A stretch of 32,000 nucleotides of DNA from Candidatus Hadarchaeales archaeon (lineage in GTDB: Archaea > Hadarchaeota > Hadarchaeia > Hadarchaeales > Hadarchaeaceae), in NCBI GenBank assembly GCA_038823825.1, contig JAWBCC010000002.1:1-32000 (forward strand). Reading direction: 5' to 3'. The notes under the pieces are model-generated. The model was not told the origin of the DNA. It did not search any database and saw only the letters and a program-made list of their open reading frames with translations. Shown here piece after piece: positions 2,892 through 29,523 of this stretch (positions are counted from its first letter, which is position 1; the number at the start of each line of letters is the position of its first letter). The translations under genes and the position numbers were made by a program.

Positions 2892-3183
2892 GAGCGATCA
2901 GAATGCCGCCGACTATCCCACAGATGCCGCCAACTGTTTGTCCGAGGTAAACTCCCGCCCTCCTCAACTGCTCAGCAACTGAGATGTTACCATAAACTTC
3001 AAAGACATTTGAAAGGAGTTCGAAGCCAACACCGAGCAGGAGAAAAGAAACGGAAACTATCAGAAGTCTTACTCCGAGACCACCTTTTGCCACTACGCCG
3101 CCATATCTAAGGAGAGCCCCAATGATCGAGATGCCAACAGCCGTCAGAAGAATTTCGGTCAGACCGAGCGCCACAGTTTCCAC
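2866..3183 (-). CDS. Small Gly-rich integral membrane protein (about 3 TM), last gene of the surface-protein operon
   Basis: 105-aa ORF with a GTG start. It has three hydrophobic Gly-rich helices. Its start overlaps the MinD-like gene's 3' end by 25 nt, and its 3' end overlaps the convergent gene by 26 nt. Confidence 0.6.
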   Translation of the reverse strand: METVALGLTEILLTAVGISIIGALLRYGGVVAKGGLGVRLLIVSVSFLLLGVGFELLSNVFEVYGNISVAEQLRRAGVYLGQTVGGICGIVGGILIALKALLSPE

Positions 3184-3884: not shown

Positions 3885-5524
3885 GCCTCTTCACCTGCCC
3901 TCCTCAGGATTTCCACTATTTCCGGCCTACGGCTTGAACTCCATCTCCTCTTCATCAGAAGATATATCGCCAGACATATTGCGATTATGGAGAAGATTAT
4001 CGCGATTATCAGGAGGATGTTTGGCTGGGGAGGGAGAACGACGAAGGCTATTCCTCTCACGATTTCCTGATCCTTAAAGTAGATTCTGACCTCGCCCATG
4101 TACGTCATCGGTTCGACATACTCGGGTAATGTGACGTAAAAGACGAAGGCGCCCGACTTCGTCGGCTCAAGCTTCATGCTAACCCCGTCGGGCTGAACCG
4201 TCCAGCCTATTGGGAGTCGAAGAATGGCTGTCACGAGGAGATTTTCGCTGGAAATATTTCTGAGCGTGAGAATGAGTCTACCAGTTTTTGCTGGTTTCAG
4301 GAACTCCGACTTGAGCTCGACTATCCGGACTAGCTCCACAAGCTCATATATCATAACCACGCGCGGAAAAGCCCAGTAGAGATATCTCTGATAGACTGGA
4401 AGAATTGCTGGTAGCCTGTAAAGGATTTCCCTCTCTTCAAACGGCTGGACACTTTCCAATCTCCACGTCACACCTGAAAGCGAGATATCCTCTGGAAATT
4501 TATCTAGAAAGGCAATTCTGTCTAATACTCCTTGGAAATCGGAAAGAATGTTATCGGTTACGAGGAGAGCTTTGAGAAACTTGGAACCGTTCTTCGCGAC
4601 GAGCTTCACGACAGTTTCCTCGTTCTCCAAGTCCAGATCGATGTGCCTGACCACCATCACATATGGATCTGGAAATCTTGATCGAACCCTTAGAATGGAG
4701 ATCATTTCGGCTATCGAATTTTCCGCCCGAACGGTTATCTTGAAACCATAGTCTCCGGGAGAGACCGTTGCAGGAATCTTAAGAAGGAGATTTACGATCC
4801 TCCTCTCTCCAGCCTCAAGCGATAGGACGCTTGGAAACGACTCGATTGCTCTAAGCATCCAGTTTTCCGCAACCGTGATCCATATCCTCGCATTCTCGAT
4901 CTTACCTGGACCCTCGTTTAAAATCTCGAAGCTCGCGAGCGTCGTGTCACCGGCTCTTTCCTCGATCAGCAGGGGGAACCGCAGAACCCTCAGCCGATAG
5001 AAAACCGGTGGAGCCGGCGGGGGGAGCGGAGGGAGCGGAGGAATCAGCGGAAGTATCTCGAGCGTTGTCCAAGCTGTCTTGGTTGATGTGAAACCCGCCG
5101 AAATCCAGTCTATAACAAGACGACACTTGTAAAATCCGAGCGGAAAACCTGTGACATTCCACGGGATGAGGAAATCCATTCTCGCTCCGGGAGAAATCAT
5201 AACGGTAGGAACAGAAATTCGATGGACTATTTTATTATCTTTGTAGATTTCTATCCTAGAGGTCGGAAGGATGTCGAGATTATAAGAACCGAGATTTCGG
5301 ATGGTGAACGAAAGAGTTGTCGTTTCGTTCTCATGAACCACTGAAGGTATGGCTTGAAAGAGCTCTATGTCTATGCCGACCTCAAGCACCTCTACTGTTA
5401 GAATCGCCTGGGCTTCTTGAGCGAAAACAGGTGATTGGCTAAAAAAGAGAGTAAAGACGAGAAAAAACGTCAGAAGCGCGGTCTTCGAAAAACCACGATT
5501 TCTAAAAATCTGTTCATCCCCCAT
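3881..5524 (-). CDS. Exported CARDB/NEW3-like (COG1361-type) multi-beta-sandwich surface protein with a C-terminal TM anchor
   Basis: 547 aa with an ATG preceded by GGAGTGA. The signal peptide ends ...SPVFAQEAQA. Repeated segments (TLSFTIRNLGS, ASFEILNEGPG, LILTLRNISS) are typical of CARDB/NEW3 sandwiches. There is a Pro linker PLIPPLPPLPPPAPP and a C-terminal TM followed by KRR. Confidence 0.7.
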   Translation of the reverse strand: MGDEQIFRNRGFSKTALLTFFLVFTLFFSQSPVFAQEAQAILTVEVLEVGIDIELFQAIPSVVHENETTTLSFTIRNLGSYNLDILPTSRIEIYKDNKIVHRISVPTVMISPGARMDFLIPWNVTGFPLGFYKCRLVIDWISAGFTSTKTAWTTLEILPLIPPLPPLPPPAPPVFYRLRVLRFPLLIEERAGDTTLASFEILNEGPGKIENARIWITVAENWMLRAIESFPSVLSLEAGERRIVNLLLKIPATVSPGDYGFKITVRAENSIAEMISILRVRSRFPDPYVMVVRHIDLDLENEETVVKLVAKNGSKFLKALLVTDNILSDFQGVLDRIAFLDKFPEDISLSGVTWRLESVQPFEEREILYRLPAILPVYQRYLYWAFPRVVMIYELVELVRIVELKSEFLKPAKTGRLILTLRNISSENLLVTAILRLPIGWTVQPDGVSMKLEPTKSGAFVFYVTLPEYVEPMTYMGEVRIYFKDQEIVRGIAFVVLPPQPNILLIIAIIFSIIAICLAIYLLMKRRWSSSRRPEIVEILRRAGEEA

Positions 5525-5615
5525 AAATCACTCCGAACAAAGAGAATGTTTTTATTCCTTAATAATTTTTTGGGAAAAATAAAGAAATCTGATGCCTCCA
5601 CGTCCTATTTCTGCG

Positions 5616-6845
5616 CTAGATTTTCCTCAGCTCGATCTTCTTCTTCCTGACCGCCCACCAGAGGATGAAGAGCACTATCAGAATCGCGATTATCGCCAAG
5701 ATGGTGATGAGAACCGGAATTGGTATCGGAGGAGCTGGAGCAATGACTTTTATCTTTGGCTTGGCCTCTACCGAATAAGTCGCTCCTAAACCTCCACCGG
5801 CACCCCCTCTAACAGCCTGGGCAAAAACGTCAACATAAATCGTATATATTCCTCCGAGGGCTTCTTTCGAGACTTTCATCTTCAGGAAAACCCTTCTCAC
5901 GGGAATCCAAAGACCTTCTCCGTTGTCGAGATAATATGCGAGTGAATATGCATCAGCATAGTTCTCTATTTCCTTCGGGATCTTGGGTTGGGCTCTGGAC
6001 GTCCTCACATACTCCCGCAGGTTTGGAAGCAGAAAGTTTGCCTCAACCCTCATTCCAAGCCAAGCGCTGTACACAACCTCAAGCCTTGGCCAATCGGCAG
6101 TTTCTCCAGAGGCAAATATCGTCTCTCCCGAATTCTCTGTGAGGAGAACAAAGGAGATTATTCCATCTTTGTTATATTGTGAATAAACCCAAGGAGTAAC
6201 TAACCAACCTACGTCCACGCCCGGAGAAGGCATTACAGCTTGAGCTATTTGCTCTCCGAGGTTCTCCGGTTTCCTAGCCCAGTTTAAGGTATCTCCGTTC
6301 CACCCATCGTTGTCCAGTCCGTAAACCTTCACTATCTTTCCCTCAAAGTTTTCGTCCCTGTTCCGGAGATATAGAACTGCAGATTCTATTTTGCTTCCTT
6401 CAGGTAAATCGGTAAGGTCAAATTTTAAAAATATCATCTTTCTACTTCCCTCGGTTCCTCCTACAACGAGATTACGGCTTCCTCCAAAAGTTTGGTTTGG
6501 CTGTTCCTCCGAGATATACGTGTCGTCGACTGGTTCCACAGCCTTGGAGAGATAAGAACGCACGGGGATATTCTCGAGCGACGGGATTATTCGGATGTTT
6601 TCGAACCAGCCACTGGGGACGGGACTGCCATCCTCTTTTGTGATTTTCACAAACTGAACCCATACCAAGACGTTTTCTGCATTCTCGGCCCAATTCCATA
6701 CGTTTATCTCAACTGTGACATCTTGACCGTATGGAACGGGTATGGGGAGATCCGACCACTTGACTCCAACGCCTATTCCCGCCTCAACAACGCTTGGACT
6801 TATGAGTAAGAAAAGGAAAAAAAAGAAAAAAGACTTATAACTCAA
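5616..6845 (-). CDS. Exported DNRLRE-domain-like surface protein with a C-terminal PIPIP + TM + KKK tail
   Basis: 409 aa with a TTG start and signal FFFFFLFLLISPSVVEA. The segment VDDTYISEEQPNQTFGGSRNLVVG...IFLKFDLTDLPEGSKIESAVLYL...WNGDTLNWARKP matches my recollection of the DNRLRE pattern. The C-terminus reads APAPPIPIPVLITILAIIAILIVLFILWWAVRKKK. Confidence 0.7.
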   Translation of the reverse strand: MSYKSFFFFFLFLLISPSVVEAGIGVGVKWSDLPIPVPYGQDVTVEINVWNWAENAENVLVWVQFVKITKEDGSPVPSGWFENIRIIPSLENIPVRSYLSKAVEPVDDTYISEEQPNQTFGGSRNLVVGGTEGSRKMIFLKFDLTDLPEGSKIESAVLYLRNRDENFEGKIVKVYGLDNDGWNGDTLNWARKPENLGEQIAQAVMPSPGVDVGWLVTPWVYSQYNKDGIISFVLLTENSGETIFASGETADWPRLEVVYSAWLGMRVEANFLLPNLREYVRTSRAQPKIPKEIENYADAYSLAYYLDNGEGLWIPVRRVFLKMKVSKEALGGIYTIYVDVFAQAVRGGAGGGLGATYSVEAKPKIKVIAPAPPIPIPVLITILAIIAILIVLFILWWAVRKKKIELRKI

Positions 6846-6855
6846 GCTAATCCCT

Positions 6856-7419
6856 TTATGGGCCTGGGGCCGTGTTCTCTACGGCTTTGACTGTCAACGT
6901 ACCGGTGTAAGTTCCTCCGAGCTGGTCGGGAGCTGTGCTGAGGGCTGGGAAGACGTTGTATTCGTCGTAGCCAACGCCAGACGGTGGCTTTCTTAGGCCG
7001 ACCAACCACGGAATGGTTTCAAGCTCGTGTCTCGCGACCAAGAAGTTTTCATTTCCCTCTTCTCCAATAGCCAACTTCCAGAACTGGATGTTCTCGATGT
7101 TGTTGTCTCCTCCGGACTTGGCTAGATACATTCCAGCATACACCGCATCATATTCGGCCTTTGCCTGCAGATCTGTCTTGACCGTCGTGGTGTCGAGAAT
7201 CCTGATCCAATACTCATCAACAGGAGCCGGCGGTGTGACATTATGCGCGTTGACGCTTACTGTTCCCCAGTCGATGTCTCCCTCGATCGTTATGTCGATG
7301 ACGACTCCGATAGTCGCGCTGAGCGTAGCAGTTTGAGTGTCAACAGGCATCACCGCAGGAATGCTCAGAAGTGTTCCAAGCACTGCGAAAGCTGTTGCGA
7401 AACCCAACAATCTCTTCAT
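6856..7419 (-). CDS. Small exported beta-rich protein, a possible fibre or fimbrin-like subunit (function unknown)
   Basis: 187 aa with an ATG preceded by GAGGG. The Sec-type signal is MKRLLGFATAFAVLGTLLSIPA. An alternating T/A strand (TQTATLSATIGVVIDITIEGDIDWGTV) and the C-terminal GGTYTGTLTVKAVE recall beta-sandwich pilin-like folds. There is no C-terminal anchor. Confidence 0.6.
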   Translation of the reverse strand: MKRLLGFATAFAVLGTLLSIPAVMPVDTQTATLSATIGVVIDITIEGDIDWGTVSVNAHNVTPPAPVDEYWIRILDTTTVKTDLQAKAEYDAVYAGMYLAKSGGDNNIENIQFWKLAIGEEGNENFLVARHELETIPWLVGLRKPPSGVGYDEYNVFPALSTAPDQLGGTYTGTLTVKAVENTAPGP

Positions 7420-7520: not shown

Positions 7521-10500
7521 TTGTCGAAAAGAATAAATAGATCGCACGATAAAAGATTTCTGGTAAAGAAATTGAACATGTTTACATCTTATAACAGAAA
7601 GGAATTCACCCTCTTGCTCCTCGGGTTAGTGATTTCTGGACTTTTCGCCATTCTCTGGACGGGACTCGCAAGCGCAACGCCAGATATCACCATCTCAGTC
7701 TTTCTCAACGACGAAATCGTTAACCCAGAACAAACGATCGTTGCCTGGGGAATCGCCGAAGAAGACGGTGCCCCGCTAGACAACAGAATTGTCCGATTCT
7801 TCTTGGATGGGGCTTTTCAAACCTTGAGCTGGGGTATGCCTTCATCGGCCCCTTGGGAGGCTGGAATACGGGAAAACACGATCATCGAAGCAAATAGAAT
7901 AAAACTTCAGTACAAGCCGGACATGGACATCGTTTTCATAAACGAAAACGGATACATCAGCTGGATTGACCCATACCGAGAAGTCAAGACGCTCGGAGTG
8001 TATGCAGACAAGCTCGGCGGAGCTGGAGACATTGACGGAGACGGGAAAATCGATGTGGTTTTTACGGATGGACCTCAGGGTGCTCTGAAATATGTTGACG
8101 TTGACAATAACATTAGAACGCTTGTAGCTTCCGGCGTTGTTAACGTTGCAAAGGGGCTTGCGGATTTCGATGGAGACGGAAAGCTGGACGTTCCGTATGT
8201 CACCACTGCTTATGACTACAAAATTTATTTCGTAGACTATGAAGGACGAATCCGGAGCGTCGGACCACTGCCCATACATCCGCTTCTGCTTGGCGGAGTA
8301 GGAGACTTCGATAACGACGGAAAACCGGAGGTCTCGTTCGGATATATGAGCGACATCCGGCACGTGGACATAGACGGTCAAGTTATAAGCATGGGAGGGA
8401 GCGTACAGTTTCACCAGACGGATCGAAGATCTGATATTAGTCAGGCGGCCGACTTCAATGGTGACGGTCGACTCGACGTCGCATATAATCCTCCCTCGGC
8501 ATACTCTGACCTTTGGATAACAGACAACCGCGGAAACGTCAGACGGGTTCTTCCTACTGGTAATGTTTTCGGTGGACTCGGCACGGTCGGTGGAATGGGT
8601 GACTTCTACGGAGATGGAAGAATTGTTATAGCCTACAAAGCCTTCTTCACATCAACTGGTAATAGATACACACCATCTCACATCATGGTGGTTGACAATA
8701 CAGGGAGGATAGATAATCTCGGAGTTCTTGCGAGATACATCGGCCCAATTGTCGACTTTGACATGGACACAGGATACGTGCCATCAGGAAGCTACAGAAC
8801 ACCGGTGATCGACTGGAGATCTCCGACGATAAGAATCGAAAACATAACCTTGACAGTGGCCATACCCGTGGATACGAGACTCTGGGTGAACGTGCAGGTC
8901 TCCGACGACAACTTCTCAACCATTAAAGATAGCAATCTTCTGGTTCTCACCCCTGGTATGGGAGGCATCGACAGAACGTTTCCGCTCAGCCTAAAGCCTG
9001 CCAGATATGCCCGAGTAATCTTCTCCTTCTTCACAGACGACCTTTCCAGAACAGCAGTACTCACATCCTTTACCCTCAACACAAACATCGTTACTTTAGA
9101 AAATGGCTGGTACATGCGCACTTTTGAGGCTCCTTCAACGCTGGGTACGCACCAAATCAAATTCACAGTGGAGAGATATCCCTATCTAGGAGAAAACACA
9201 AAAACTTTCGACGTGCGCAGACTAGTTTTCGAACCGGCTGGCCTCCTCGACGAACACGGGCAAATAGACAACATCTTGAATCCGGGAGAAAGATACTACG
9301 TCCTTGTTAAAATCCAGGAAGAAAACGGAACTCACAGATATGATGTCACATCTGGTTCGTTTACCGAAAACATCGGCGGAACTCTCCATAGCCTGATATA
9401 CCTTGAGAATTCGATCTGGAGGACATCCCTCCAGCTCACCGCTCCAACGACGATCGGCACATACTCCTTCGGTTCAACAGTCTCCGGCTACTCTGCCGAA
9501 AACATAATAGGTTCTGGCAACGTTACACACACATACTATGTCAAGACTCTAGAAATCCAGCTCTTCTTCGAGCGTTCTTGGGTCAACCCGGGAGACAATG
9601 TTACGATTTATGGCCGGGTAAAGAAATGGCCCGACAACGTCTGGGTCGAGGACGCGGATGTTGACGTGTATGTGGCTGGGAACTATGTGGCGACAGTAAG
9701 AACTCAGAGTGGAGAAAACGCTGGAAGATATAAATATACCTTCCAGGCTCCGAGAACGCTGGGCGGATATCCGGTCAGGGTTTGGATATCCCACCAAGGA
9801 CTCGACAGAGAAAACACCTCCACCTTCTACGTCAAAACCCTCACGATCACCGTTAACATGGATCCGGCGAGCCATCAGGTCAGACCTGGCGTGAAGGTAA
9901 GAATCTATGGAGTCGTCAGGAGATGGCCCGAGGGAACTCCTGCGAGCTACGCGACAGTTAAGCTTAGAATGGGCCCGCTAGACAACTACGAAAACATAAA
10001 CTGGCCCGTTGCAGACAACATCGCGCGAGCCGACGGTTCCTACGACATTTACTTTACCGTCAGGGATGAATGGGTCGGAGAATTCAAGCTTGTTGTAATC
10101 GCGACAGACAACTACTTGTTAGAGAACGAGAACTCCACCTGGATGCTCAGCGAAACTATAAAAATATCCGTCTACTTCTCAAGAAGCAACGTCCCGCCCG
10201 GAACGCTCATCTACGTTTGGGGATGGGCAATATTCCAGCCGAGCGGGGTTCCGGTTTCTAACAATCCCGTCAGCATCTGGAAGTGGGAAGGTGCAGATGA
10301 AGACGCTACATTCACCGACGAGAACGGAAGATATGAATATTATTTCTACGCCCCACAGAACTGGGGTAACTACAACTTCAGGGTGAGAACTTCGAAAGCT
10401 GGACTGACTGGAGAAAACGTGTATCCATACAAGGTTAGCACAATCTTGATTTCATTGAACATAGACGATAAGATTGTAAACAAAGGGCAGGAGATAAACA

Positions 10501-13500
10501 TAAGCGGAAGAGCGGCGCTCTTCCCGGGCAACTTGCCGGTGGGCAATACTGTTTTCAGATATTCTGTCGGATGGAGACCGGGGTACAGCTACACACGAAC
10601 GGATGAAAACGGAAACTACACATTTGTTGAAACTGCCCCATCCGCAATCGGAAGATACACCATAAAAGTTGAAATCGCCCAGGGAGATTTCAGCGGGGAG
10701 AACGCCGATAACATCGAGACTAGGGACATGCTGATCTCCGTTTCATTGAGCAAAACAAAGGCTATCCCGGGCGAAAGGGTAAGAGTTAGCGGCTTGACAA
10801 CCGTGTTGCTTCCGGGCGGGGAAAATAGGCCTCCTCGCGGCGGAACAAGAGTAGATATATACATCGATGACGAATGGTGGGCATACACATACACCGATAC
10901 GAGTGGATATTACTGGAAAGACATAAACGCCCCTGACGTTGGACCACACGAGGTAAAGGTCGTTTGCGCAGATAACGAGAACATCATTGGAGAAAACGTC
11001 ACGTATCTCTACGTGGAACGCATTCTTATTTCCGTTAACGTTGACAGGGATCCTTCCAACCCAGGAGCTGCAAACAGAGTCTGGGGATATGCATGGTTCC
11101 AGTACAGCGGAGACCCTGTTGAGAACTATGTACAAATCCGTCTTAATGGTGTGCCGATCGCAACGGTTATGACAAACCGTTTCGGATACTACGAAAATAA
11201 CTTCACCTCACCAACCTCGCTTGGTGAGCACAGAATCGATGTCACAATGTTGCATGAAAACTTCAGGGGAGACAATACGCGGTGGTTCTGGGTAAGAACC
11301 CTGGACATTCCAGTGAATCTGAGCGATAAGATTGTGAGGAGCGGGCAGTACATAACGGTCAGCGGAAGAATAACCGTTCAACCTGGCGGATGGCCAGTTC
11401 CTCAGTATACAGTTGTGCGCATATATCCGAGCTGGACCTCTCCAATAATAACATCCACCGGCCCAGATGGTACTTACACGGCCGGTCTAAATGCCCCCGC
11501 AACTCTTGGGATCCACACGATAAGGGTTGAAGCGGAGGAGGGGGAGAACGGCATAATGGGAAGCAGGGAAAACACGATAGAGGTCCGAGAGCTCCGCTTC
11601 TCAGAGTTTAAACTTGTAGACAACCACGGGCAGGAGGACCGAATAATGAATCCGGGTGAATCCTACAGACTATTCATAAGAATTCAGGAATTCAATGGAG
11701 CCTCATATTTCGACGTTGAGGAAACTCATCCATCAAATCCGTTCAAGGTCACGATCGCGGGTCAAGACTACACCCTTGCATACACCGGAAGTTCTGGAAT
11801 ATGGAGAACTCCTTACCTCACAGCAGAGAGTTCGCTCGGGATGTATGTGGTCTCCGCATTCTTCTTCGGAAGTTCAGCTAACGATATCTATGGAAGCCAA
11901 TCAATCAACTATACATACGACGTGAAGACAATCTGGCTTTCGCTTGTCATAGATAATGTAGTCAATCCTATGGAAAACACAACAATTTCCGGCAGAGCTA
12001 TTCTATTGCCAGATGATGCCCCTGTCAAACGAGAAAACGTATTTATCTTCAAAGAAGACGAACTGCTTACAATCGTTCAGACCGACTGGGAAGGTTATTT
12101 CAGATATTCCTTCGTGGCTCCTGACCTGCTCGAAAATTACTTCCTGAAAGTTAGAATAACCGATGCCAACGGAATTGAGAGAGAAAACTCCAGAAGACAG
12201 TGGGTGAAAACAATTGAAATTTCCATATTCCTAGGCGAAGAGGTCGTCGGAATTTCTCCCACTGACAATGTGTATGGTTGGGTCATTCTACATCCAGACA
12301 ACATACCACAAAGCGGCTTGGCTGTGAGGATTTTCGGAACCGGTCTAGACAACGAACAAACTGTGTATACCAACGATGAAGGTTATTACTTCCTGCAGTT
12401 CAACGTTTCTGCATATGCTAGGAATTACGGATTTGGAGAGGTCAGAGTTCAAGTCAGGAATGCTGACAACATTTACAATGAAAACTCCGCGACCTACTAT
12501 GTCGGAACTCCGGTAAACGTGAGGGGATGGATGAAGAATGCTGAAGGAAAACCGCTTCCCGCAACTTTCGAGTTCACATCGATTTCGAAAGGTTATACCC
12601 TCAGAATTTCCGTAAAACCAGACGGAACATACAGTGGCGTAATAATAAAAGACGATTATCATATGACATTCAGACTCTTTGGGCATTCTATAACTTTCTA
12701 CTCCGTGAGGACTTTCTCAGAAGCCCAGCAATGGGAGAACTTTGATAATCTAATCCGAATAGACAATATACCGCGATCCGCAGCATACGTTTCAGACAAC
12801 GTGAACACGATATTCGCTATTGCTATAGAAATAGACAACAAGCTCGCGGACAATTTCCAGACTGCGACGATCGTTCTGGATTACACACCATGGCTCGGGA
12901 TGATAACAAACGAAAGCAACCTTGCCGTCTACAAGGCGAGCTGGGATATGGCGAGAAGAGAAAACACAAGTAAATGGACAAGGCTTGGAGGAACTATCAA
13001 CAAGATCGATCACACAATAACTCTCAGTGGAGTTACCAAATTCTCGGCATATGTGGTGGGCGAGAGTGTACCTTCCATGCAGGATGTCGTTGGACCGATC
13101 GTTGGGCCTTTAGTGGGGCCGATCGTTGGACCACTTAGAGGACCGATACCAGATTACAGCGGGACTCTGAGGAAGATCATGGGGCTCATCGCAGATATTC
13201 AGACGACGGTGGAGAACCTGCCTACTCTTGAAAATCTCCCGCAAACTCCACCAGTGGAGGTTACTCCGAGTCCTTCCGCCGGTGTGTCTCTCGATATGTA
13301 TCCTGGAGAAACGGCCAAAGTTCCACTTTCAATCAAGAACAACTCCAATGTTCCGATTATCGTCACCGCATCAAAAGTCGGTCAGACATCCGCCTTCATC
13401 TCCTTCGAAGAACCGTACATAACCGTTCAGCCAGGAGATGTAGGAAAAGTTATGCTTGTCGTTCATATACCTGAAAACACACCGAAGGGTCTTTACACAG

Positions 13501-15284
13501 GTTCTGTTTTCCTTTATCCTGGAGTCCTGCAGGCTCCGATTGAAATTCCTGTCAAGATTCGCGTTCTCTCTCCGGCCAGAAGTCTGCTTGATGTAAGAAT
13601 ATCTTCACTTCTCCCAAGCGTTAATCCTGGTAAACATCAGAAAGCCGAGGTTACACTCTACAACATGGGAGAAGAGAAGAGAGTCGATGCCGTGGTGAGA
13701 GTTCAACTCATTGATCCGGACACTTTAGCTGTTCTCAATGAGGTTGAGGAAACTATGGCGGTCGAGACTTCTTTGAGCAGAATCTTTAGCCTGAAGGTTC
13801 CTGAAAACGCAAAGGAAAAATATTACTACCTAAAAGCTTTGGCGACTTATCTGACAGGCGAAAACAGAGAGATGCAGGCAAGTGCTCTCGCCTCGATGTC
13901 TGTGATAATTCCATTCTGGGATAAAACAACCTGGGGGATTTCCAACAAGATATTCTACTCTGTGATAGCCGCTGCGATTGCCGCCGGAACGGCCGGTTAC
14001 CTGTACTACCGCAGGCTGAAGAAATTACGCGAAGCACAGAAGAGATATGAAAGGGTTCTATCCTTCACCGAACTTCCACAGCCTGGACCGAGAAGCGCCT
14101 TCATAGGAAAACTGGCTGAAACCCCGAGAAAGGCATATCTGTACCTAGATGACCTCAGAACTCACGCGATTGTTGCTGGAGCGACCGGAGCAGGCAAAAC
14201 CATAATGACGCAGGATCTTGCCGAAGAGGCACTCATGCACGGAATCGATGTCTTCGTTTTCGACCCGACAGCACAGTGGACTGGAATGCTCCAAAAGTGT
14301 ACCGAGCACGAGATGCTTAGACACTATGACAAGTTTGGAATGAAGGAGAGAGATGCAGCGGGATTCCCAGGATATATAAAGAGAATCAAGGATCCAACTG
14401 AGTATCTCAACCTAGGCAAACTGCTCAAGAGACCGAAGAAAGAAGGAGAGATGGGCAGGATATGGGTTTTCCTGATCGACCAGCTTGACAGCAGAGATCT
14501 TGACGTTTTCATCGCAAACACCATAAACGACATCTTCAAGAGCAATCCCGAGGAGAGCCAGAAGCTTAGGGCGCTCATAATCTTTGACGAGGTCCACAGA
14601 CTCCTACCCAGATTCGGAGGAAAAGGTCTGGGAATAACGATGCTCGAGCGCGCCGTAAGAGAATTCAGAAAATGGGGAATTGGTCTCGTGCTCGCTTCGC
14701 AAGTCATTGCTGACTTTGAAAAGGAAATAAGAGCAAACATAAGAACACAGATCCAGCTCTGGACGAGAGATGAGGAGGAACTCGAGAGGATAAAGGAGAA
14801 GTTCGGACTCGGCTACATGCAGTCGGTCGCCAAAGCGGCCGTTGGGACCGGAATGGTATTCAACTCCGACTACAACAAGGGTAGACCTTACTTCATCCAC
14901 TTCAGGCCCATTCTCCACAGATTGACCAGACTAGAAGAAGATGTGATAATAAAGTGGGACAAATACACCAGGAGACTTGAGGAGCTCCAGGAGAAACTCG
15001 ATAAGCTGAGAGAGGCTGGAGCTGACATTTTCGACCTTGAGATCGAACTCGGGCTAGCGAGAAAGAAACTAGAAGAGGGTGCGTTCGACGTCGTCGATCT
15101 CTACTTGGAATCTGTTGAACCTAGAATTGATAAAGAGTGTAAGGCGAGAAAAATAGAAATCAAAAAAGTCAGGGTTACTGAGGAAGAGCTGAAGAAGGCC
15201 GAGATGGAGGCTAAGAAAGAAAGAGTAAAAGCGGAGAAGGCGGAGGACGAGAAGGAATCCAGAAAGCCCGAAAAGAAAACATGA
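7521..15284 (+). CDS. Giant (2,587-codon) surface protein: signal/anchor, FG-GAP/VCBS propeller, Ig-like repeat stalk, CARDB/NEW3-like domains, one TM helix, cytoplasmic HerA/FtsK-superfamily ATPase, coiled-coil tail
   Basis: The ORF is uninterrupted. The start is either TTG 7521 (SD-like GGGGTGG upstream) or ATG 7578 (MFTSYNRKEFTLLLLGLVISGLFAILWTGLASA). Domain evidence is given in the sub-features below. Confidence 0.9.
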   Translation: MSKRINRSHDKRFLVKKLNMFTSYNRKEFTLLLLGLVISGLFAILWTGLASATPDITISVFLNDEIVNPEQTIVAWGIAEEDGAPLDNRIVRFFLDGAFQTLSWGMPSSAPWEAGIRENTIIEANRIKLQYKPDMDIVFINENGYISWIDPYREVKTLGVYADKLGGAGDIDGDGKIDVVFTDGPQGALKYVDVDNNIRTLVASGVVNVAKGLADFDGDGKLDVPYVTTAYDYKIYFVDYEGRIRSVGPLPIHPLLLGGVGDFDNDGKPEVSFGYMSDIRHVDIDGQVISMGGSVQFHQTDRRSDISQAADFNGDGRLDVAYNPPSAYSDLWITDNRGNVRRVLPTGNVFGGLGTVGGMGDFYGDGRIVIAYKAFFTSTGNRYTPSHIMVVDNTGRIDNLGVLARYIGPIVDFDMDTGYVPSGSYRTPVIDWRSPTIRIENITLTVAIPVDTRLWVNVQVSDDNFSTIKDSNLLVLTPGMGGIDRTFPLSLKPARYARVIFSFFTDDLSRTAVLTSFTLNTNIVTLENGWYMRTFEAPSTLGTHQIKFTVERYPYLGENTKTFDVRRLVFEPAGLLDEHGQIDNILNPGERYYVLVKIQEENGTHRYDVTSGSFTENIGGTLHSLIYLENSIWRTSLQLTAPTTIGTYSFGSTVSGYSAENIIGSGNVTHTYYVKTLEIQLFFERSWVNPGDNVTIYGRVKKWPDNVWVEDADVDVYVAGNYVATVRTQSGENAGRYKYTFQAPRTLGGYPVRVWISHQGLDRENTSTFYVKTLTITVNMDPASHQVRPGVKVRIYGVVRRWPEGTPASYATVKLRMGPLDNYENINWPVADNIARADGSYDIYFTVRDEWVGEFKLVVIATDNYLLENENSTWMLSETIKISVYFSRSNVPPGTLIYVWGWAIFQPSGVPVSNNPVSIWKWEGADEDATFTDENGRYEYYFYAPQNWGNYNFRVRTSKAGLTGENVYPYKVSTILISLNIDDKIVNKGQEINISGRAALFPGNLPVGNTVFRYSVGWRPGYSYTRTDENGNYTFVETAPSAIGRYTIKVEIAQGDFSGENADNIETRDMLISVSLSKTKAIPGERVRVSGLTTVLLPGGENRPPRGGTRVDIYIDDEWWAYTYTDTSGYYWKDINAPDVGPHEVKVVCADNENIIGENVTYLYVERILISVNVDRDPSNPGAANRVWGYAWFQYSGDPVENYVQIRLNGVPIATVMTNRFGYYENNFTSPTSLGEHRIDVTMLHENFRGDNTRWFWVRTLDIPVNLSDKIVRSGQYITVSGRITVQPGGWPVPQYTVVRIYPSWTSPIITSTGPDGTYTAGLNAPATLGIHTIRVEAEEGENGIMGSRENTIEVRELRFSEFKLVDNHGQEDRIMNPGESYRLFIRIQEFNGASYFDVEETHPSNPFKVTIAGQDYTLAYTGSSGIWRTPYLTAESSLGMYVVSAFFFGSSANDIYGSQSINYTYDVKTIWLSLVIDNVVNPMENTTISGRAILLPDDAPVKRENVFIFKEDELLTIVQTDWEGYFRYSFVAPDLLENYFLKVRITDANGIERENSRRQWVKTIEISIFLGEEVVGISPTDNVYGWVILHPDNIPQSGLAVRIFGTGLDNEQTVYTNDEGYYFLQFNVSAYARNYGFGEVRVQVRNADNIYNENSATYYVGTPVNVRGWMKNAEGKPLPATFEFTSISKGYTLRISVKPDGTYSGVIIKDDYHMTFRLFGHSITFYSVRTFSEAQQWENFDNLIRIDNIPRSAAYVSDNVNTIFAIAIEIDNKLADNFQTATIVLDYTPWLGMITNESNLAVYKASWDMARRENTSKWTRLGGTINKIDHTITLSGVTKFSAYVVGESVPSMQDVVGPIVGPLVGPIVGPLRGPIPDYSGTLRKIMGLIADIQTTVENLPTLENLPQTPPVEVTPSPSAGVSLDMYPGETAKVPLSIKNNSNVPIIVTASKVGQTSAFISFEEPYITVQPGDVGKVMLVVHIPENTPKGLYTGSVFLYPGVLQAPIEIPVKIRVLSPARSLLDVRISSLLPSVNPGKHQKAEVTLYNMGEEKRVDAVVRVQLIDPDTLAVLNEVEETMAVETSLSRIFSLKVPENAKEKYYYLKALATYLTGENREMQASALASMSVIIPFWDKTTWGISNKIFYSVIAAAIAAGTAGYLYYRRLKKLREAQKRYERVLSFTELPQPGPRSAFIGKLAETPRKAYLYLDDLRTHAIVAGATGAGKTIMTQDLAEEALMHGIDVFVFDPTAQWTGMLQKCTEHEMLRHYDKFGMKERDAAGFPGYIKRIKDPTEYLNLGKLLKRPKKEGEMGRIWVFLIDQLDSRDLDVFIANTINDIFKSNPEESQKLRALIIFDEVHRLLPRFGGKGLGITMLERAVREFRKWGIGLVLASQVIADFEKEIRANIRTQIQLWTRDEEELERIKEKFGLGYMQSVAKAAVGTGMVFNSDYNKGRPYFIHFRPILHRLTRLEEDVIIKWDKYTRRLEELQEKLDKLREAGADIFDLEIELGLARKKLEEGAFDVVDLYLESVEPRIDKECKARKIEIKKVRVTEEELKKAEMEAKKERVKAEKAEDEKESRKPEKKT
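7960..8790 (+). repeat. FG-GAP/VCBS-type repeats (integrin-like beta-propeller) within the giant protein
   Basis: At least six spaced Ca-binding-type motifs are present: GDIDGDGKIDVVF, ADFDGDGKLDVPY, GDFDNDGKPEVSF, ADFNGDGRLDVAY, GDFYGDGRIVIAY and VDFDMDTGY. Confidence 0.75.
9538..12505 (+). repeat. About nine to ten diverged ~95-100-aa Ig-like (carboxypeptidase-regulatory-like) repeats, interrupted by a second copy of a distinct ~110-aa module
   Basis: Each unit starts V(K/R)T(L/I)xIx(V/L) and carries ...PG..v.i.G......P.g.pv....V......TDenG.Y...f.aP...G.y...v......GEN. Examples are YVKTLEIQLFF..., YVKTLTITVNM..., KVSTILISLNI..., YVERILISVNV..., WVRTLDIPVNL..., DVKTIWLSLVI... and WVKTIEISIFL.... 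Confidence 0.75.
13089..13148 (+). repeat. Five tandem 12-nt units encoding (VGPx)5: VGPI VGPL VGPI VGPL RGPI
   Basis: The units are gttggaccgatc / gttgggccttta / gtggggccgatc / gttggaccactt / agaggaccgata, read directly from the sequence. Confidence 0.9.
13950..14009 (+). other. Single predicted transmembrane helix of the giant protein
   Basis: IFYSVIAAAIAAGTAGYLYY is followed by RRLKKLREAQKR. By the positive-inside rule the downstream ATPase lies in the cytoplasm. Confidence 0.7.
14100..14920 (+). other. HerA/FtsK-superfamily (DUF87-like) P-loop ATPase domain of the giant protein
   Basis: Walker A is HAIVAGATGAGKT (GATGAGKT at 14178-14201). Walker B is LRALIIFDEVHRLLP (about 14573-14596). 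REFRKWGIGLVLASQVIADF...IRTQIQLWTRDEEE resembles the HerA eGRKfGvgl.l.sQrP...l.lrl pattern. Confidence 0.7.
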
Positions 15285-15324
15285 TAAGGGTTTTTGAATA
15301 TAATAACGATATTTTTGATGGTTG

Positions 15325-16017
15325 GTGAATTTGCCCGAAAAAAAGAAGAAAGAAACTCTTGCAGATAGGGTCGAAAAGCTGAGCGCACAAATGGAAGCTT
15401 TCGGAAAACTCAGGGAGAGCTTAGATATGAGGATCTCCATGCTGAACGAAAGAATCGGAGAGCTCAGAGCGATGGTTCTGAGAACCGAAAAAGATATGAT
15501 GGAGATCCGTGCGAAAACCGAAAGGACTACCGGGATAATCGAAGAGCTCGACCCAAGCAAAATAATGGGAGAGATCAGGAGGATGCAGGCGCGGGTCGAG
15601 ACGCTGGCGGCGAGGATAGATGCAACCGATGCTAAGCTTGACGCAATTAGTTCTGAACTTAGAGAAGTTAGGAGAGAGATTGGAAAGTTCCGTGGGGTTG
15701 AAAGCGTACTTTCCCTCTCCGAGGAGGTCAGGGCTGACTTGACGGAGATGGAAAAGATTGCGGCAGATGTCAGGAGGCAGGCGGACAGGGTGATGGCCAT
15801 CTTCGCGGAGCTGAGGGATAGGATGGGAAAAACCGAAAGGTTTGTAGCTAGGCTCGAGGCGCTCGAGGATTCGACAAAATCACTAAATAAGGGACTGAGC
15901 GAGCTTGCACCGAAGGTCGAAGAAGCTCTTGCTAGAATAGAAGAGCTGAGGGCGACGGCAAAAGCGACAAATCCTGAAGCCAAGGAGGAAAAACCCAAAG
16001 AGGAGAAAAAGAAATAA
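15325..16017 (+). CDS. Charged coiled-coil protein, paralogue A (function unknown)
   Basis: About 230 aa with heptad-rich E/R/K/L composition. It is collinear without gaps with the 23876..24442 product (MEAFGKLRESLDMRISMLNERIGELRA vs METISRLRESYDTRLSTISESIGSLKA; FRGVESVLSLSEEVRADL vs FKGIEELLELAKEIREDI). I prefer the GTG at 15325 as the start by alignment with the paralogue's ATG; the track uses TTG 15322. Confidence 0.75.
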   Translation: MNLPEKKKKETLADRVEKLSAQMEAFGKLRESLDMRISMLNERIGELRAMVLRTEKDMMEIRAKTERTTGIIEELDPSKIMGEIRRMQARVETLAARIDATDAKLDAISSELREVRREIGKFRGVESVLSLSEEVRADLTEMEKIAADVRRQADRVMAIFAELRDRMGKTERFVARLEALEDSTKSLNKGLSELAPKVEEALARIEELRATAKATNPEAKEEKPKEEKKK

Positions 16018-24442: not shown

Positions 24443-24464
24443 TCCTGCAAAGAGTGGTGGTAAA

Positions 24465-26870: not shown

Positions 26871-26929
26871 TGTCTCTGCCTCCCTTTTAAGTCTTGAACT
26901 AAAACTTCAGCTTTGAACGACTATAAAGG

Positions 26930-27002
26930 TGGGCCCGCTGGGATTCGAACCCAGGCTCTCCACCTCGTAAGGGTGGCGTCATGCCAACTAGACCACGGGC
27001 CC
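26930..27002 (-). tRNA. tRNA-Val (anticodon UAC)
   Basis: Hand-folded cloverleaf: acceptor GGGCCCG/CGGGCCC, anticodon arm CCACC-CUUACGA-GGUGG, T arm CUGGG-UUCGAAU-CCCAG, discriminator A. Two C residues follow (26928-26929), but there is no full CCA. Confidence 0.9.
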
Positions 27003-29479: not shown

Positions 29480-29523
29480 TCCAAAATAGTATCGCAGTCG
29501 AAGGATAAAATAACATGATGAAC

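What the first reader, a model, noticed from the sequence alone, without database searches (positions are those of the whole stretch)
7521..15284. Giant integrin-like ectodomain fused through one TM helix to a cytoplasmic HerA/FtsK-type ATPase
Seen in sequence: one uninterrupted 7,764-nt ORF, about a quarter of the window. From N to C it encodes a signal/anchor and at least 6 FG-GAP/VCBS motifs (DxDGDGkxDv), followed by a stalk of about 10 Ig-like repeats with two copies of a distinct module. A (VGPx)5 hinge and two CARDB/NEW3-like domains come next. A single TM helix (13950-14009) is followed by RRLKKLR. The cytoplasmic part is a P-loop domain with Walker A GATGAGKT, Walker B IIFDEVHRL and a HerA-like RKWGIGLVLASQ...IQLWTRDEEE segment, ending in a ~120-aa highly charged coiled coil. 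Established: HerA/FtsK/VirB4-superfamily ATPases are ring-forming translocases of DNA or protein. The 'TM + HerA/VirB4-like ATPase' topology is that of CedB in the crenarchaeal Ced DNA-import system. Inference: covalent coupling of an adhesin-like, integrin-style ectodomain to such a motor is unusual. It suggests either (a) a contact-dependent DNA or macromolecule transfer device in which adhesion and the motor share one polypeptide, or (b) an ATP-driven inside-out/outside-in mechanotransducer. A hexameric ATPase ring would cluster six ectodomains into a rosette. No polytopic channel partner is obvious nearby.
Basis: partly seen in the sequence, partly recalled or inferred. Interest (0 to 1): 0.85.

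Follow-up and report, generated by a model that had tools for sequence, protein, structure and literature searches.

The report
SPEARE-type giant adhesin–ATPase of Hadarchaeales
The 7.7-kb gene is real and encodes a giant surface adhesin joined through one membrane helix to a HerA-type ATPase, but this design is already known as the 'SPEARE' protein family of tiny symbiotic archaea, so this is a new member in a different archaeal group, and its function is still untested.

Summary
One ORF (7521-15284; probable ATG at 7578) encodes a signal peptide, an Ig domain, an FG-GAP propeller, an Ig-repeat stalk, two membrane-proximal Ig domains, one TM helix, a HerA-type P-loop ATPase and a coiled-coil tail.

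The claim that the architecture is unusual does not hold. [quoted passage not shown] The ATPase module has 353 representative clusters at E<=1e-30, mostly in DPANN archaea. Fifty-five of 143 top representatives exceed 2,000 aa (maximum 6,253).

Three results add to the papers I could read. The window is from a Hadarchaeales archaeon, which is not DPANN. Sequence and fold place the ATPase with HerA, not ResIII or VirB4/TraG as published. A cytoplasmic coiled-coil partner gene follows the SPEARE gene in 57 of 72 loci (here 15322-16017), sometimes with a MinD-like ATPase. No conserved channel partner was found.

Function is untested. Most likely a ring-forming motor bundles the adhesin stalks at cell contacts.

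Verdict: new member of a known kind, moderate interest.

The parts
7578..15284 (+). SPEARE-family gene. The ORF is open from TTG 7521; the probable start is ATG 7578. It encodes 2568 aa from the ATG.
   Evidence: [quoted passage not shown]
7578..7676 (+). N-terminal signal peptide or anchor: MFTSYNRKEF-TLLLLGLVISGLFAILWTGLASA, with an AxA-type end.
   Evidence: Hydropathy scan. The same N-terminal hydrophobic segment is present in most full-length family members. Cleavage is inferred, not shown.
7683..7961 (+). First copy of the ~95-aa Ig-like repeat (aa 55-147), placed before the propeller.
   Evidence: Repeat HMM, E 1.5e-27.
7968..8930 (+). FG-GAP beta-propeller head (aa ~150-470) with six DxDGDG-like motifs spaced ~48 aa apart.
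   Evidence: Pfam FG-GAP_3 2e-6 and FG-GAP 1.3e-4, both above their cut-offs. Motif positions. The number of blades (6 or 7) was not determined.
8931..9218 (+). Unassigned beta-rich region (aa 471-566). Its last ~60 residues match the C-terminal half of the Ig-like repeat.
   Evidence: partial repeat match at aa 504-566, E 7.7e-8. Only a sub-threshold Invasin_D3 match (no individual stretch passing; best at protein aa 503-532) touches it.
9219..9548 (+). Distinct ~110-aa module, copy 1 (aa 567-676).
   Evidence: 42% identical to copy 2, E 6e-25.
9546..11588 (+). Seven tandem Ig-like repeats (aa 676-1356).
   Evidence: Repeat HMM, E 1e-27 to 7e-36 per copy. Pfam CarboxypepD_reg, Invasin_D3 and MG4 hits.
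11589..11930 (+). Distinct module, copy 2 (aa 1357-1470).
11928..12506 (+). Two more Ig-like repeats (aa 1470-1662).
12507..13088 (+). Unassigned ectodomain region (aa 1663-1856).
   Evidence: No Pfam family at E<=1. Sequence read.
13089..13145 (+). VGPIVGPLVGPIVGPLRGP hinge, encoded by a short tandem DNA repeat.
13284..13904 (+). Two membrane-proximal Ig-like beta-sandwich domains (aa 1922-2128). This is the first part of the conserved family core.
   Evidence: AF2 model strands 3-209. They are collinear with the whole ectodomain of the ~770-aa short family members and with SPEARE. Homologue P0003 carries Pfam NEW3.
13950..14009 (+). Single transmembrane helix, followed by the basic stretch RRLKKLR (14010-14030).
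   Evidence: Conserved position in the family.
14094..14933 (+). HerA-type P-loop ATPase (aa 2192-2471). It retains Walker A, the FDPTAQW motif, Walker B (DE), the REFRKWG arginine-finger motif and the SQ sensor. All of these are invariant across 40 homologues.
   Evidence: Pfam HerA_C and DUF87. Invariant columns. PDB profile: HerA 4d2i, 2.8e-11. Foldseek: HerA, 3.6e-12.
14937..15284 (+). C-terminal charged helical (coiled-coil) tail, aa 2473-2581, plus the stop codon.
   Evidence: AF2 helices 554-662. Conserved in the family and in SPEARE.
15322..16017 (+). Conserved partner gene: a 231-aa cytoplasmic coiled-coil protein with no TM helix. It starts 37 nt after the SPEARE stop codon.
   Evidence: The family is present in 57 of 72 related loci that have room downstream. 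In 39 loci it starts within -60..+150 nt on the same strand. The family HMM scores members >=161 bits and all other ORFs <=26 bits. The model is three long helices.
23876..24442 (+). Second copy (paralogue) of the coiled-coil partner family, 188 aa.
   Evidence: 161 bits to the family HMM. Shares the F-x-G-x-E ... AD-x-x-x-x-IF motifs. Whether it works with this system is unknown.
3159..3884 (-). MinD/ParA-type ATPase. This is a facultative neighbour of SPEARE-like genes.
   Evidence: Pfam CbiA and ParA. Homologues sit next to the SPEARE-like gene in 6 other loci, including both other Hadarchaeales loci, where the gene is co-oriented with the coiled-coil partner. Its membership of the system is inferred.
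3881..7419 (-). Divergent cluster of three signal-peptide surface proteins: 547 aa CARDB/NEW3 with a C-terminal TM helix, 409 aa CBM96 with a C-terminal TM helix, and 187 aa.
   Evidence: This is context only. A functional link is suggested by similar surface proteins (Disaggr_repeat, PKD) beside SPEARE-like genes elsewhere, but it was not tested.

Best explanation
The gene encodes a member of the SPEARE family of archaeal giant surface proteins, here in a Hadarchaeales archaeon.

Shown:
- A Sec-type signal leads a ~2,100-residue ectodomain. It consists of one Ig domain, an FG-GAP propeller head, a stalk of Ig-like repeats and a hinge.
- Next comes the conserved family core: two membrane-proximal Ig domains, one TM helix, a HerA-type ATPase with every catalytic motif (including the trans-acting arginine-finger motif) and a coiled-coil tail.
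- The gene is followed by a conserved cytoplasmic coiled-coil partner gene.

Inferred mechanism:
- The ATPase assembles into a ring (probably a hexamer) directly under the membrane. Its N-terminal face points at the bilayer, so several adhesin stalks are tied into one bundle at a site of contact with another cell or surface.
- The tails and the partner protein form a cytoplasmic coiled-coil platform. In some genomes a MinD/ParA ATPase may position it.
- ATP hydrolysis most likely moves a polymer through the ring at the contact site. DNA is the default substrate of HerA/FtsK relatives.

My probabilities: family identity and architecture about 0.95; ring formation about 0.7; polymer (DNA or protein) translocation across or at the membrane about 0.35.
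For: - Homology to the type SPEARE protein over both Ig domains, the TM helix, the ATPase and the tail: 36% identity, E 5e-133.
- Collinearity of the last ~660 aa with complete ~770-aa family members.
- Family topology is conserved: an N-terminal hydrophobic segment, a ~230-aa ectodomain, a TM helix, then Walker A.
- Family size: 585 confirmed stretches in species-representative genomes, and in 39 of the 80 best loci the frame carrying the ATPase stays open for >=2000 codons. There are 353 representative clusters at E<=1e-30, and 55 of 143 top representatives are >=2000 aa.
- HerA assignment: Pfam HerA_C and DUF87; PDB profile HerA 2.8e-11 against DotL 8e-4, FtsK 0.07 and TrwB 0.12; the Foldseek top hits are all HerA for the ATPase part.
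- Walker A and B, the REFRKWG motif and the SQ sensor are invariant in 40 homologues. The REFRKWG stretch aligns with HerA's AREGRKFG.
- The partner gene is conserved and adjacent. A MinD-like gene recurs in 7 loci.
- The window is archaeal and chromosomal (SRP RNA, tRNAs, TFE). It is from Hadarchaeales: a neighbouring protein is 100% identical to an NCBI Hadarchaeales protein.
- Published work: SPEARE is expressed in Ca. Nha. antarcticus (proteomics, PMC6642349).
Against: - No biochemical or genetic test of any family member exists in the papers I could read.
- There is only one TM helix per chain after signal cleavage, and no conserved polytopic membrane partner in 84 loci. A six-helix bundle is narrow for DNA.
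- No NurA, nuclease, pilin or T4SS component is conserved next to the gene.
- The oligomeric state was not modelled.
- Hamm 2019 found peptides from the ecto and cytoplasmic parts in different gel fractions. The two halves may therefore be separated after synthesis, which would weaken the idea of force or signal coupling along one chain.
- Hadarchaeota are not known symbionts (my background knowledge), so the host-interaction role proposed for DPANN may not transfer.
Confidence: 0.8

Rival explanations
1. Cytoplasmic anchoring and positioning platform with no transport. The ATPase ring, its coiled-coil tails, the coiled-coil partner and (where present) the MinD/ParA ATPase serve only to cluster, localise or mechanically brace the adhesin stalks. 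This could act as an inside-out or outside-in switch. Nothing crosses the membrane.
For: - The conserved coiled-coil tail and the conserved coiled-coil partner.
- A MinD/ParA-type gene co-oriented with the partner gene in the Hadarchaeales loci L045 and L065, and adjacent in L032 and L058.
- No conserved channel-forming neighbour, and only one TM helix per chain.
Against: - All characterised HerA/FtsK/VirB4/VirD4 relatives move or act on a polymer (established knowledge).
- Strict conservation of every catalytic motif argues for real mechanical work rather than a passive scaffold.
- The MinD-like gene is present in only 7 of 85 loci.
- No direct evidence shows that the tail binds the partner.
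Confidence: 0.3
2. Part of a type IV secretion-like 'straw' that injects effectors into a host cell, with the cytoplasmic domain acting as a VirB4/TraG-type secretion ATPase (proposal of Reva et al. 2023, PMC10266531).
For: - Weak matches to T4SS ATPases, confined to short P-loop-region stretches: TrwB_AAD_bind 20.9 bits, TraC-F-type 29.9 bits, VirB4_plasma 25.6 bits.
- DotL at 8e-4 in the PDB profile search.
- Tandem short paralogues follow the giant gene in L004, L007, L049, L062, L072 and L080.
Against: - HerA outranks every T4SS ATPase by sequence and by fold. No VirB4, VirD4 or FtsK appears in the Foldseek top 50.
- The NCBIfam T4SS scores are 20 to 25 times below their cut-offs.
- No VirB4 N-terminal domain, VirB6-like, VirB2-like or CedA-like gene was seen in this window. 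None was conserved in related loci.
- In four nanohaloarchaeal loci the genes after the partner that I scanned are unrelated or unassigned (peptidase M3, Na/H exchanger, DUF5794, three with no match), not ATPases.
Confidence: 0.1
3. The cytoplasmic domain is a type III restriction-enzyme-like module that degrades imported DNA (original reading of Hamm et al. 2019).
For: Pfam ResIII matches at E 9.9e-6 over aa 2192-2342 of the ATG-numbered protein. Many homologues carry the same precomputed hit.
Against: - The ResIII match covers only the generic P-loop/helicase core.
- HerA_C and DUF87 score better, and the fold is HerA.
- No nuclease domain or motif was found in the protein.
- Reva et al. 2023 also found no endonuclease domain.
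Confidence: 0.03
4. Assembly or annotation artefact: two separate genes (a surface protein and a membrane-anchored ATPase) joined by a sequencing error.
For: Short (~700-800 aa) stand-alone versions of the core exist. In some loci a large surface protein is a separate upstream gene (L002: a 1361-aa PKD protein before the 787-aa P0039).
Against: - The junction lies inside the conserved core. The short forms already contain ectodomain, TM helix and ATPase in one chain.
- The extension sits between the signal peptide and the core, and the frame is open throughout.
- The same giant layout appears in dozens of independent assemblies.
- No repeats that could mislead assembly.
Confidence: 0.02

Closest known systems
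SPEARE proteins of Nanohaloarchaeota (Ca. Nanohaloarchaeum antarcticus NAR1_1133, 5,998 aa; Ca. Nanopetramus SG9; Ca. Nanohalococcus occultus SVXNc_0300, 9,409 aa): Hamm et al. 2019 (PMC6642349), Reva et al. 2023 (PMC10266531)
   Same: - Same overall order: signal peptide, huge adhesin-like ectodomain, one TM helix near the C-terminus, conserved cytoplasmic P-loop domain, coiled-coil end.
- Direct homology over the last ~620 aa (36% identity, E 5e-133).
- An 'Ig domain then beta-propeller' head is also described for SVXNc_0300.
- Short ~650-720-aa versions exist in both.
- The taxa I found (Woese-, Aenigm- and Micrarchaeota, Altiarchaeales) match those Hamm listed for relatives of the intracellular part.
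   Different: - The host lineage is Hadarchaeales, not DPANN.
- The protein is shorter (2,568 aa).
- The head is an FG-GAP propeller rather than WD40/PQQ-like.
- No laminin-G, serine-protease or toxin-like domain was detected.
- My data classify the ATPase as HerA-type rather than ResIII or VirB4/TraG.
- The conserved coiled-coil partner gene is not mentioned in the passages of the two papers I read.
HerA (archaeal/bacterial HerA-NurA DNA-end-resection translocase; anti-phage Sir2-HerA and DUF4297-HerA)
   Same: - Best sequence and fold match for the ATPase core.
- Shared Walker A, DP-x-x-x-(Y/W) motif, Walker B and the AREGRKFG/REFRKWG motif with the SQ sensor.
- A ring-forming, trans-arginine-finger enzyme is expected.
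   Different: - No HAS-barrel N-domain. A TM helix and Ig ectodomains take its place.
- No NurA, Sir2 or DUF4297 partner.
- Membrane-anchored.
- Has an extra coiled-coil tail and a coiled-coil partner.
CedB / VirB4 and type IV coupling proteins (VirD4/TrwB/DotL); FtsK/SpoIIIE
   Same: Membrane-tethered ring ATPases of the same FtsK-HerA superfamily, with the motor on the cytoplasmic face. This is what the protein may 'work like'.
   Different: - Only P-loop-level similarity: NCBIfam CedD (the only Ced-system model matched) 26 bits against a cut-off of 600, TraC 30 against 567, TrwB E 0.12, FtsK E 0.07.
- No VirB4 N-domain, no all-alpha domain, no FtsK gamma domain, no polytopic TM domain.
- No associated CedA or VirB6-like channel.
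Integrin alpha subunits and bacterial FG-GAP/VCBS adhesins
   Same: An FG-GAP propeller with calcium-binding DxDGDG loops sits on top of an Ig-like stalk, followed by a single TM helix.
   Different: There is no beta-subunit partner, no I-domain and no short signalling tail. The cytoplasmic part is a 420-aa ATPase. The resemblance is limited to the head-and-stalk design.

Membership tests
SPEARE proteins (Hamm et al. 2019) | Conserved intracellular C-terminal portion homologous to that of NAR1_1133 | tested here: met
   BLASTP against the NAR1_1133 C-terminus printed in Fig. S18 of PMC6642349: 36% identity over 625 columns, E 5e-133.
SPEARE proteins (Hamm et al. 2019) | Most of the length is extracytoplasmic, with a single TM helix near the C-terminus and the C-terminal region in the cytoplasm | tested here: met
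   Signal segment at aa 27-52. The only other hydrophobic segment is at aa 2144-2163, followed by RRLKKLR (positive-inside). The AF2 model shows one long TM helix.
SPEARE proteins (Hamm et al. 2019) | Very long, with multiple adhesion domains in the ectodomain | tested here: met
   2,568 aa, with 10 Ig-like repeats and an FG-GAP propeller. It is shorter than the named examples (3,315-9,409 aa) but within the family range.
SPEARE proteins (Hamm et al. 2019) | [quoted passage not shown] | tested here: not met
   No Laminin_G, peptidase or endonuclease family at E<=1 in Pfam or NCBIfam. Reva et al. 2023 dispute that these domains exist even in the type proteins, so I treat this as a weakness of the name, not of the homology.
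SPEARE proteins (Reva et al. 2023 description) | C-terminal coiled coil after the ATPase | tested here: met
   Helices at model residues 554-662. They align with the SPEARE tail.
HerA (HerA-NurA helicase/translocase) | HerA-type RecA-like core with Walker A and B, an arginine-finger motif and a sensor | tested here: met
   Pfam HerA_C 33.4 bits (cut-off 22) and DUF87 27.9 bits (cut-off 23.2). PDB profile 4d2i, 2.8e-11. Foldseek 4d2i, 3.6e-12. Invariant motifs.
HerA (HerA-NurA helicase/translocase) | N-terminal HAS-barrel domain | tested here: not met
   The residues before the core are a TM helix and an ~18-aa linker. There is no barrel in the model.
HerA (HerA-NurA helicase/translocase) | NurA (or Mre11/Rad50) gene neighbourhood; full-length equivalog score | tested here: not met
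   No NurA, Mre11 or Rad50 in the window. NCBIfam helicase_HerA scores 16.6 bits against a cut-off of 970.
HerA (ring assembly) | Hexameric ring with a central pore | not testable with these tools
   Only monomer prediction was available. Ring formation is inferred from the conserved trans-acting arginine-finger motif.
VirB4 / CedB-type conjugation or DNA-import ATPase | VirB4 N-terminal domain, family-level score, and T4SS/Ced partner genes (VirB6/CedA-like polytopic protein, pilins) | tested here: not met
   TraC-F-type 29.9 bits (cut-off 567), VirB4_plasma 25.6 (cut-off 590), CedD 26 (cut-off 600). No such neighbours here or conserved in 84 loci.
Type IV coupling protein (VirD4/TrwB/TraG) | Two N-terminal TM helices, a nucleotide-binding domain and an all-alpha domain | tested here: not met
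   The TrwB_AAD_bind match covers only 42 residues around the P-loop (20.9 bits). TrwB E 0.12 in the PDB profile search. T4CPs are absent from the Foldseek top 50. The 'TM, loop, TM, ATPase' topology would be mimicked only if the signal segment is not cleaved, which was not tested.
FtsK/SpoIIIE | Polytopic N-terminal membrane domain, FtsK alpha/beta motor, gamma domain | tested here: not met
   No FtsK_SpoIIIE Pfam hit at E<=1. FtsK E 0.07-0.6 and P-loop only.
Integrin alpha-like FG-GAP propeller | FG-GAP repeats above the Pfam threshold | tested here: met
   FG-GAP_3 28.7 bits (cut-off 26.9), 3 stretches. FG-GAP 22.2 bits (cut-off 22.1). Six motifs. A seven-blade closure was not modelled.

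The most novel reading that the evidence does not exclude
The conserved SPEARE core (two Ig domains, TM helix, HerA-type ring ATPase, coiled-coil tail), its adjacent coiled-coil partner and a facultative MinD/ParA ATPase together form a widespread, so far unrecognised archaeal two- or three-component membrane motor. This motor would carry out contact-dependent uptake or exchange of DNA (or another polymer). The giant ectodomain would be only a variable targeting add-on. Because the module also occurs in Hadarchaeales and Altiarchaeota, it would be a general archaeal cell-cell transfer device rather than a parasitism tool specific to DPANN.
Probability: 0.2. Interest if true: 0.75.

Novelty: new member of a known kind. 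Interest (0 to 1): 0.4.

Why it matters
SPEARE proteins are cited as the main candidate for how nanosized DPANN archaea grip and exploit their hosts, yet their mechanism is unknown. The two published readings of the cytoplasmic domain (restriction enzyme; VirB4/TraG) disagree.

This case adds four things:
- The family reaches a non-DPANN lineage (Hadarchaeales). A purely parasitic role is therefore too narrow.
- Sequence, profile and fold evidence place the motor with HerA. This predicts a ring with a trans arginine finger and a polymer substrate.
- A conserved, adjacent coiled-coil partner gene (and sometimes a MinD-like gene) defines a small, testable module. The partner is not mentioned in the passages of the two SPEARE papers I read.
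- The ~770-aa short forms show that the conserved machine is the core, not the giant stalk.

None of this changes the basic picture. It sharpens which experiments to run in the cultivable nanohaloarchaeal systems.

Tried and rejected
- Exact look-up of the 2,568-aa product found no record, probably because a different start codon was called.
- The word-indexed protein search with the C-terminal query returned only proteins <=797 aa. That wrongly suggested the giant form was rare. The genome scan and the exhaustive representative search corrected this.
- Literature: 'HerA + DPANN + transmembrane' and 'FtsK-HerA superfamily' searches gave nothing specific. Iyer et al. 2004 is not held. A bare 'SPEARE' search was swamped by surnames. 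'HerA + adhesin + DPANN' and 'Hadarchaeota + surface protein' gave nothing relevant.
- Partner protein: the PDB profile and NCBIfam gave only generic coiled-coil matches such as SMC, Rad50 and MCP. The word-indexed search gave only 6 homologues. The AF2 model from 7 sequences is three long helices at pLDDT 72 and pTM 0.27, and Foldseek found no match. The idea of an ESCRT-III/PspA-like fold, prompted by a 21-bit PspA_IM30 hit, is therefore unsupported.
- Defence-system reading: the PADLOC best hits are mad8 (5.8e-17) and HerA models (3.5e-13), which are generic HerA-like similarity with no defence partners nearby. PHROGs gives only weak terminase or unknown hits. Rejected.
- I looked for the 'second VirB4/TraG ATPase downstream' reported by Reva et al. 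in four nanohaloarchaeal loci. The genes I scanned after the partner are a peptidase M3, a Na/H exchanger, a DUF5794 protein and three with no Pfam match. A short SPEARE paralogue does follow the giant gene in other lineages.
- I looked for a conserved polytopic channel partner and found none.

Full report
**1. Observation**

The window holds one uninterrupted frame, 7521-15284 on the + strand, of 2587 codons. The first ATG is at 7578 (MFTSYNRKEF...). It is followed by a 21-residue hydrophobic stretch ending in ASA, which is typical of a Sec signal.

Pfam supports FG-GAP_3 and FG-GAP above their curated cut-offs. It also gives HerA_C, DUF87 and a ResIII/TrwB-type P-loop match at the C-terminus.

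A repeat HMM built from the protein itself finds ten complete ~95-aa Ig-like repeats. One lies before the propeller (aa 55-147). Nine lie in the stalk: seven at aa 676-1356 and two at aa 1470-1662. The stalk is interrupted by two copies of another ~110-aa module, 42% identical to each other.

Six DxDGDG-type loops spaced ~48 aa apart mark the propeller.

The gene has no long near-identical DNA repeats. The description is therefore correct, and the ORF is far beyond chance.

**2. Where the window comes from**

The window carries an archaeal SRP RNA, two tRNAs, TFE-alpha and other housekeeping genes.

A TtuA-like protein at 29872-30837 (-) is 100% identical to an NCBI protein of a 'Candidatus Hadarchaeales archaeon' on a 53.7-kb contig.

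The closest relative of the giant protein's C-terminus (84-86% identity) is a fragment on a 2.6-kb Hadarchaeota contig. Its reading frame stays open to the contig edge, so it is a truncated orthologue.

**3. The architecture is a family trait**

The C-terminal 458 aa have hundreds of homologues at E<1e-88, mostly in Woese-, Pace-, Nano-, Aenigm- and Micrarchaeota and in Altiarchaeales.

Full-length short members (~770 aa) share one layout: an N-terminal hydrophobic segment, a ~230-aa ectodomain, a TM helix at ~260-280, and Walker A at ~335.

The last ~660 residues of the window protein are collinear with the whole mature short protein. The giant protein is therefore the family core with ~1,850 residues inserted behind the signal peptide.

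A scan of species-representative genomes confirmed 585 related stretches. In the 80 best loci, the frame carrying the ATPase is open for >=2000 codons in 39. It often runs to the locus edge at >4000 codons.

An exhaustive HMMER search of 1.84 billion representatives gave 353 clusters at E<=1e-30. Of the 143 new proteins in the top 150, 109 are >=1000 aa, 55 are >=2000 aa and 6 are >=5000 aa (maximum 6253). The ATPase is always at the C-terminal end.

**4. It is already named**

Full-text search led to Reva et al. 2023 (PMC10266531) and Hamm et al. 2019 (PMC6642349).

They describe the 'SPEARE' proteins of Nanohaloarchaeota, up to 9,409 aa. The layout is a signal peptide, an Ig domain and beta-propellers, tens of Ig-like domains, one TM helix near the C-terminus, a conserved cytoplasmic P-loop domain and a terminal coiled coil. 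Short 655-717-aa versions exist. Relatives of the intracellular part are reported in Woese-, Aenigm- and Micrarchaeota and in Altiarchaeales.

The supplement of Hamm et al. prints the NAR1_1133 sequence. Its last 611 residues align with window aa 1922-2537 at 36% identity, E 5e-133. The alignment runs without a break through both membrane-proximal Ig domains, the PFWDK juxtamembrane motif, the TM helix, the ATPase and the tail.

Membership in this family is therefore established.

**5. What kind of ATPase**

Hamm et al. read the domain as a type III restriction enzyme. Reva et al. read it as VirB4/TraG-like. My tests place it with HerA:

- A profile of 40 family members against all PDB sequences gives HerA 4d2i at 2.8e-11, other HerAs and YjgR at 1e-10 to 1e-6, DotL at 8e-4, and FtsK and TrwB only at ~0.1.
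- An AF2 model of aa 1920-2587 (pLDDT 90) matches HerA structures first in Foldseek: 4d2i at 3.6e-12, HerA-NurA 9x1m, then the Sir2/DUF4297-HerA complexes. No VirB4, VirD4 or FtsK appears in the top 50.
- The NCBIfam T4SS and Ced models score 20-25 times below their cut-offs.
- Walker A, FDPTAQW, Walker B (DE), REFRKWG (which aligns with HerA's AREGRKFG) and the SQ sensor are invariant in the family.

An active enzyme that works as a ring is therefore expected, but the ring itself is inferred.

The domain lacks HerA's HAS-barrel. The TM helix and an ~18-residue linker lead straight into the core. The face that binds NurA in HerA would here face the membrane.

**6. Neighbourhood**

I called ORFs in 84 related loci and the window and clustered them.

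- **Coiled-coil partner.** The second most widespread family after the SPEARE-like genes is a cytoplasmic coiled-coil protein of 190-790 aa with no TM helix.
  - It is present in 57 of 72 loci that have room downstream. In 39 it starts within -60..+150 nt of the SPEARE stop on the same strand.
  - It has specific motifs (ERFS..SE.IGELR; V.PEKL; F.G.E...KLN.E.K..L....K.....ADKVE.IF).
  - Its HMM scores members >=161 bits and every other ORF <=26 bits, including other coiled coils.
  - The window copy is at 15322-16017, 37 nt after the giant gene. A paralogue lies at 23876-24442.
  - Databases give only generic coiled-coil matches.
  - A shallow AF2 model shows three long helices broken at the invariant Pro and Gly. 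It has no fold match.
- **MinD/ParA-type ATPase** (window 3159-3884). It recurs in 7 loci, including both other Hadarchaeales loci, where it is co-oriented with the partner gene.
- **Short core-only paralogues.** They directly follow the giant gene in six loci.
- **Other large surface proteins** (PKD, disaggregatase-repeat/CBM96-like, NEW3). They are frequent neighbours.
- **Not found.** No polytopic membrane protein, nuclease, pilin or T4SS component is conserved.

**7. How it most likely works**

Shown:
- An exported adhesin-like ectodomain.
- A single TM helix.
- A catalytically intact HerA-type domain in the cytoplasm.
- A conserved coiled-coil tail.
- A conserved adjacent coiled-coil partner.

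Inferred:
- The ATPase forms a ring under the membrane and thereby bundles several stalks.
- The tails and the partner build a cytoplasmic platform.
- ATP hydrolysis moves a polymer at a contact site.

I rate polymer (DNA or protein) translocation at about 0.35 and a pure anchoring or positioning role at about 0.3. The published T4SS 'straw' is at about 0.1, and the restriction-enzyme reading is below 0.05.

Against transport: there is only one TM helix per chain and no channel partner.

Against a passive scaffold: every catalytic residue is strictly conserved, and all characterised relatives act on a polymer.

The ectodomain heads differ between members. They include Big_13, Ig_Rha78A_N, NEW3 and WD40/PQQ types, and FG-GAP here (PMC10266531). 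This fits a variable targeting part on a constant engine.

**8. Verdict**

However, it is a new member of a described family, not a new kind of system.

Three items go beyond the papers I could read: the occurrence in Hadarchaeales, the HerA assignment of the motor, and the conserved coiled-coil partner (with an occasional MinD-like gene).

Function remains experimentally untested for the whole family. Interest is moderate.

Noticed in passing
window 23876-24442 (+): A second, 188-aa paralogue of the SPEARE-associated coiled-coil partner family (161 bits to the family HMM). It lies 8 kb downstream, directly before (and overlapping) the TFE-alpha gene at 24387-25016. It is unclear why there are two copies, or whether this one serves another (unseen) SPEARE-like gene.
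   Followed up: partly
window 2866-7419 (-): A divergently oriented run of five genes: three signal-peptide surface proteins (187 aa; 409 aa CBM96 with a C-terminal TM helix; 547 aa CARDB/NEW3 with a C-terminal TM helix), a MinD/ParA-type ATPase and a 105-aa protein with three predicted TM helices. Together with the SPEARE gene this looks like a cell-surface island.
   Followed up: partly
window 1-2173 (-), runs off the window start: An ORF of more than 724 aa with a signal peptide, a calcineurin-like metallophosphoesterase domain and a DUF2341 domain at the truncated end. This is another secreted protein next to the island.
   Followed up: partly
window 17930-18430 and 18427-18936 (+): An ATP-grasp enzyme appears split into two ORFs that overlap by 4 nt (PylC-like N-domain, then ATPgrasp_Ter/ATP-grasp_3 C-part). 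It sits inside a glycosylation-type operon: UDP-GlcNAc 2-epimerase, a HAD hydrolase, a GT2 and a PIG-L deacetylase on the other strand. It is either a true split gene or a frameshift.
   Followed up: no
window 20291-20830 (+): A 179-aa protein with a sub-threshold match to the C-terminal half of Exosortase_EpsH (24.2 bits against a cut-off of 25.7), right after the GT2 gene. It may be a short archaeosortase-like protein. No PGF-CTERM-type sorting signal was seen in the giant protein.
   Followed up: no
window 29526-29837 (-): Archaeal SRP RNA (160 bits). The mechanical ORF 29515-29868 (+) lies over it and is therefore spurious. tRNA-Ser(GCT) at 29391-29479 and tRNA-Val(TAC) at 26928-27002 are nearby.
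   Followed up: yes
L004 1-10181; also L007, L049, L062, L072, L080: A short (~660-840 aa) core-only paralogue sits immediately after the giant SPEARE-like gene, sometimes overlapping its end, and before the coiled-coil partner. This raises the possibility of mixed rings made of giant and short subunits.
   Followed up: partly
L013 14485-18069 (-) and 12 other Woese-/Pacearchaeota loci: A ~1,150-aa surface protein lies convergently downstream of the SPEARE-partner pair in 13 loci. It has a disaggregatase-related repeat at the N-terminus, a NEW3-like domain, a coiled coil and a C-terminal TM helix. It is reminiscent of the CBM96 and NEW3 proteins upstream in the window.
   Followed up: partly
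L002 3455-7908; L050, L069, L074, L076, L078, L084: In the subfamily with ~1,300-1,580-aa SPEARE-like proteins, a ~90-140-aa protein and a ~930-1,360-aa PKD-domain protein with a C-terminal TM helix precede the ATPase gene as separate genes. Here the adhesin and the motor appear to be split between two chains.
   Followed up: no
L032 12494-15810 and L058 12452-15621: Here the gene after the SPEARE-like gene is the MinD-like ATPase. It is followed by a 770-820-aa coiled-coil protein that matches the partner HMM only weakly (E 1e-4 to 7e-3). This may be a divergent, longer form of the partner.
   Followed up: no
Homologous-protein output: The word-indexed protein search listed no hit longer than 797 aa for the ATPase query. 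The exhaustive representative search and the genome scan found many relatives of 2,000-6,000 aa with equal or better scores. The best-120 list from that tool (from the 8,000 candidates it scored) held none of the giant relatives for this query.
   Followed up: partly
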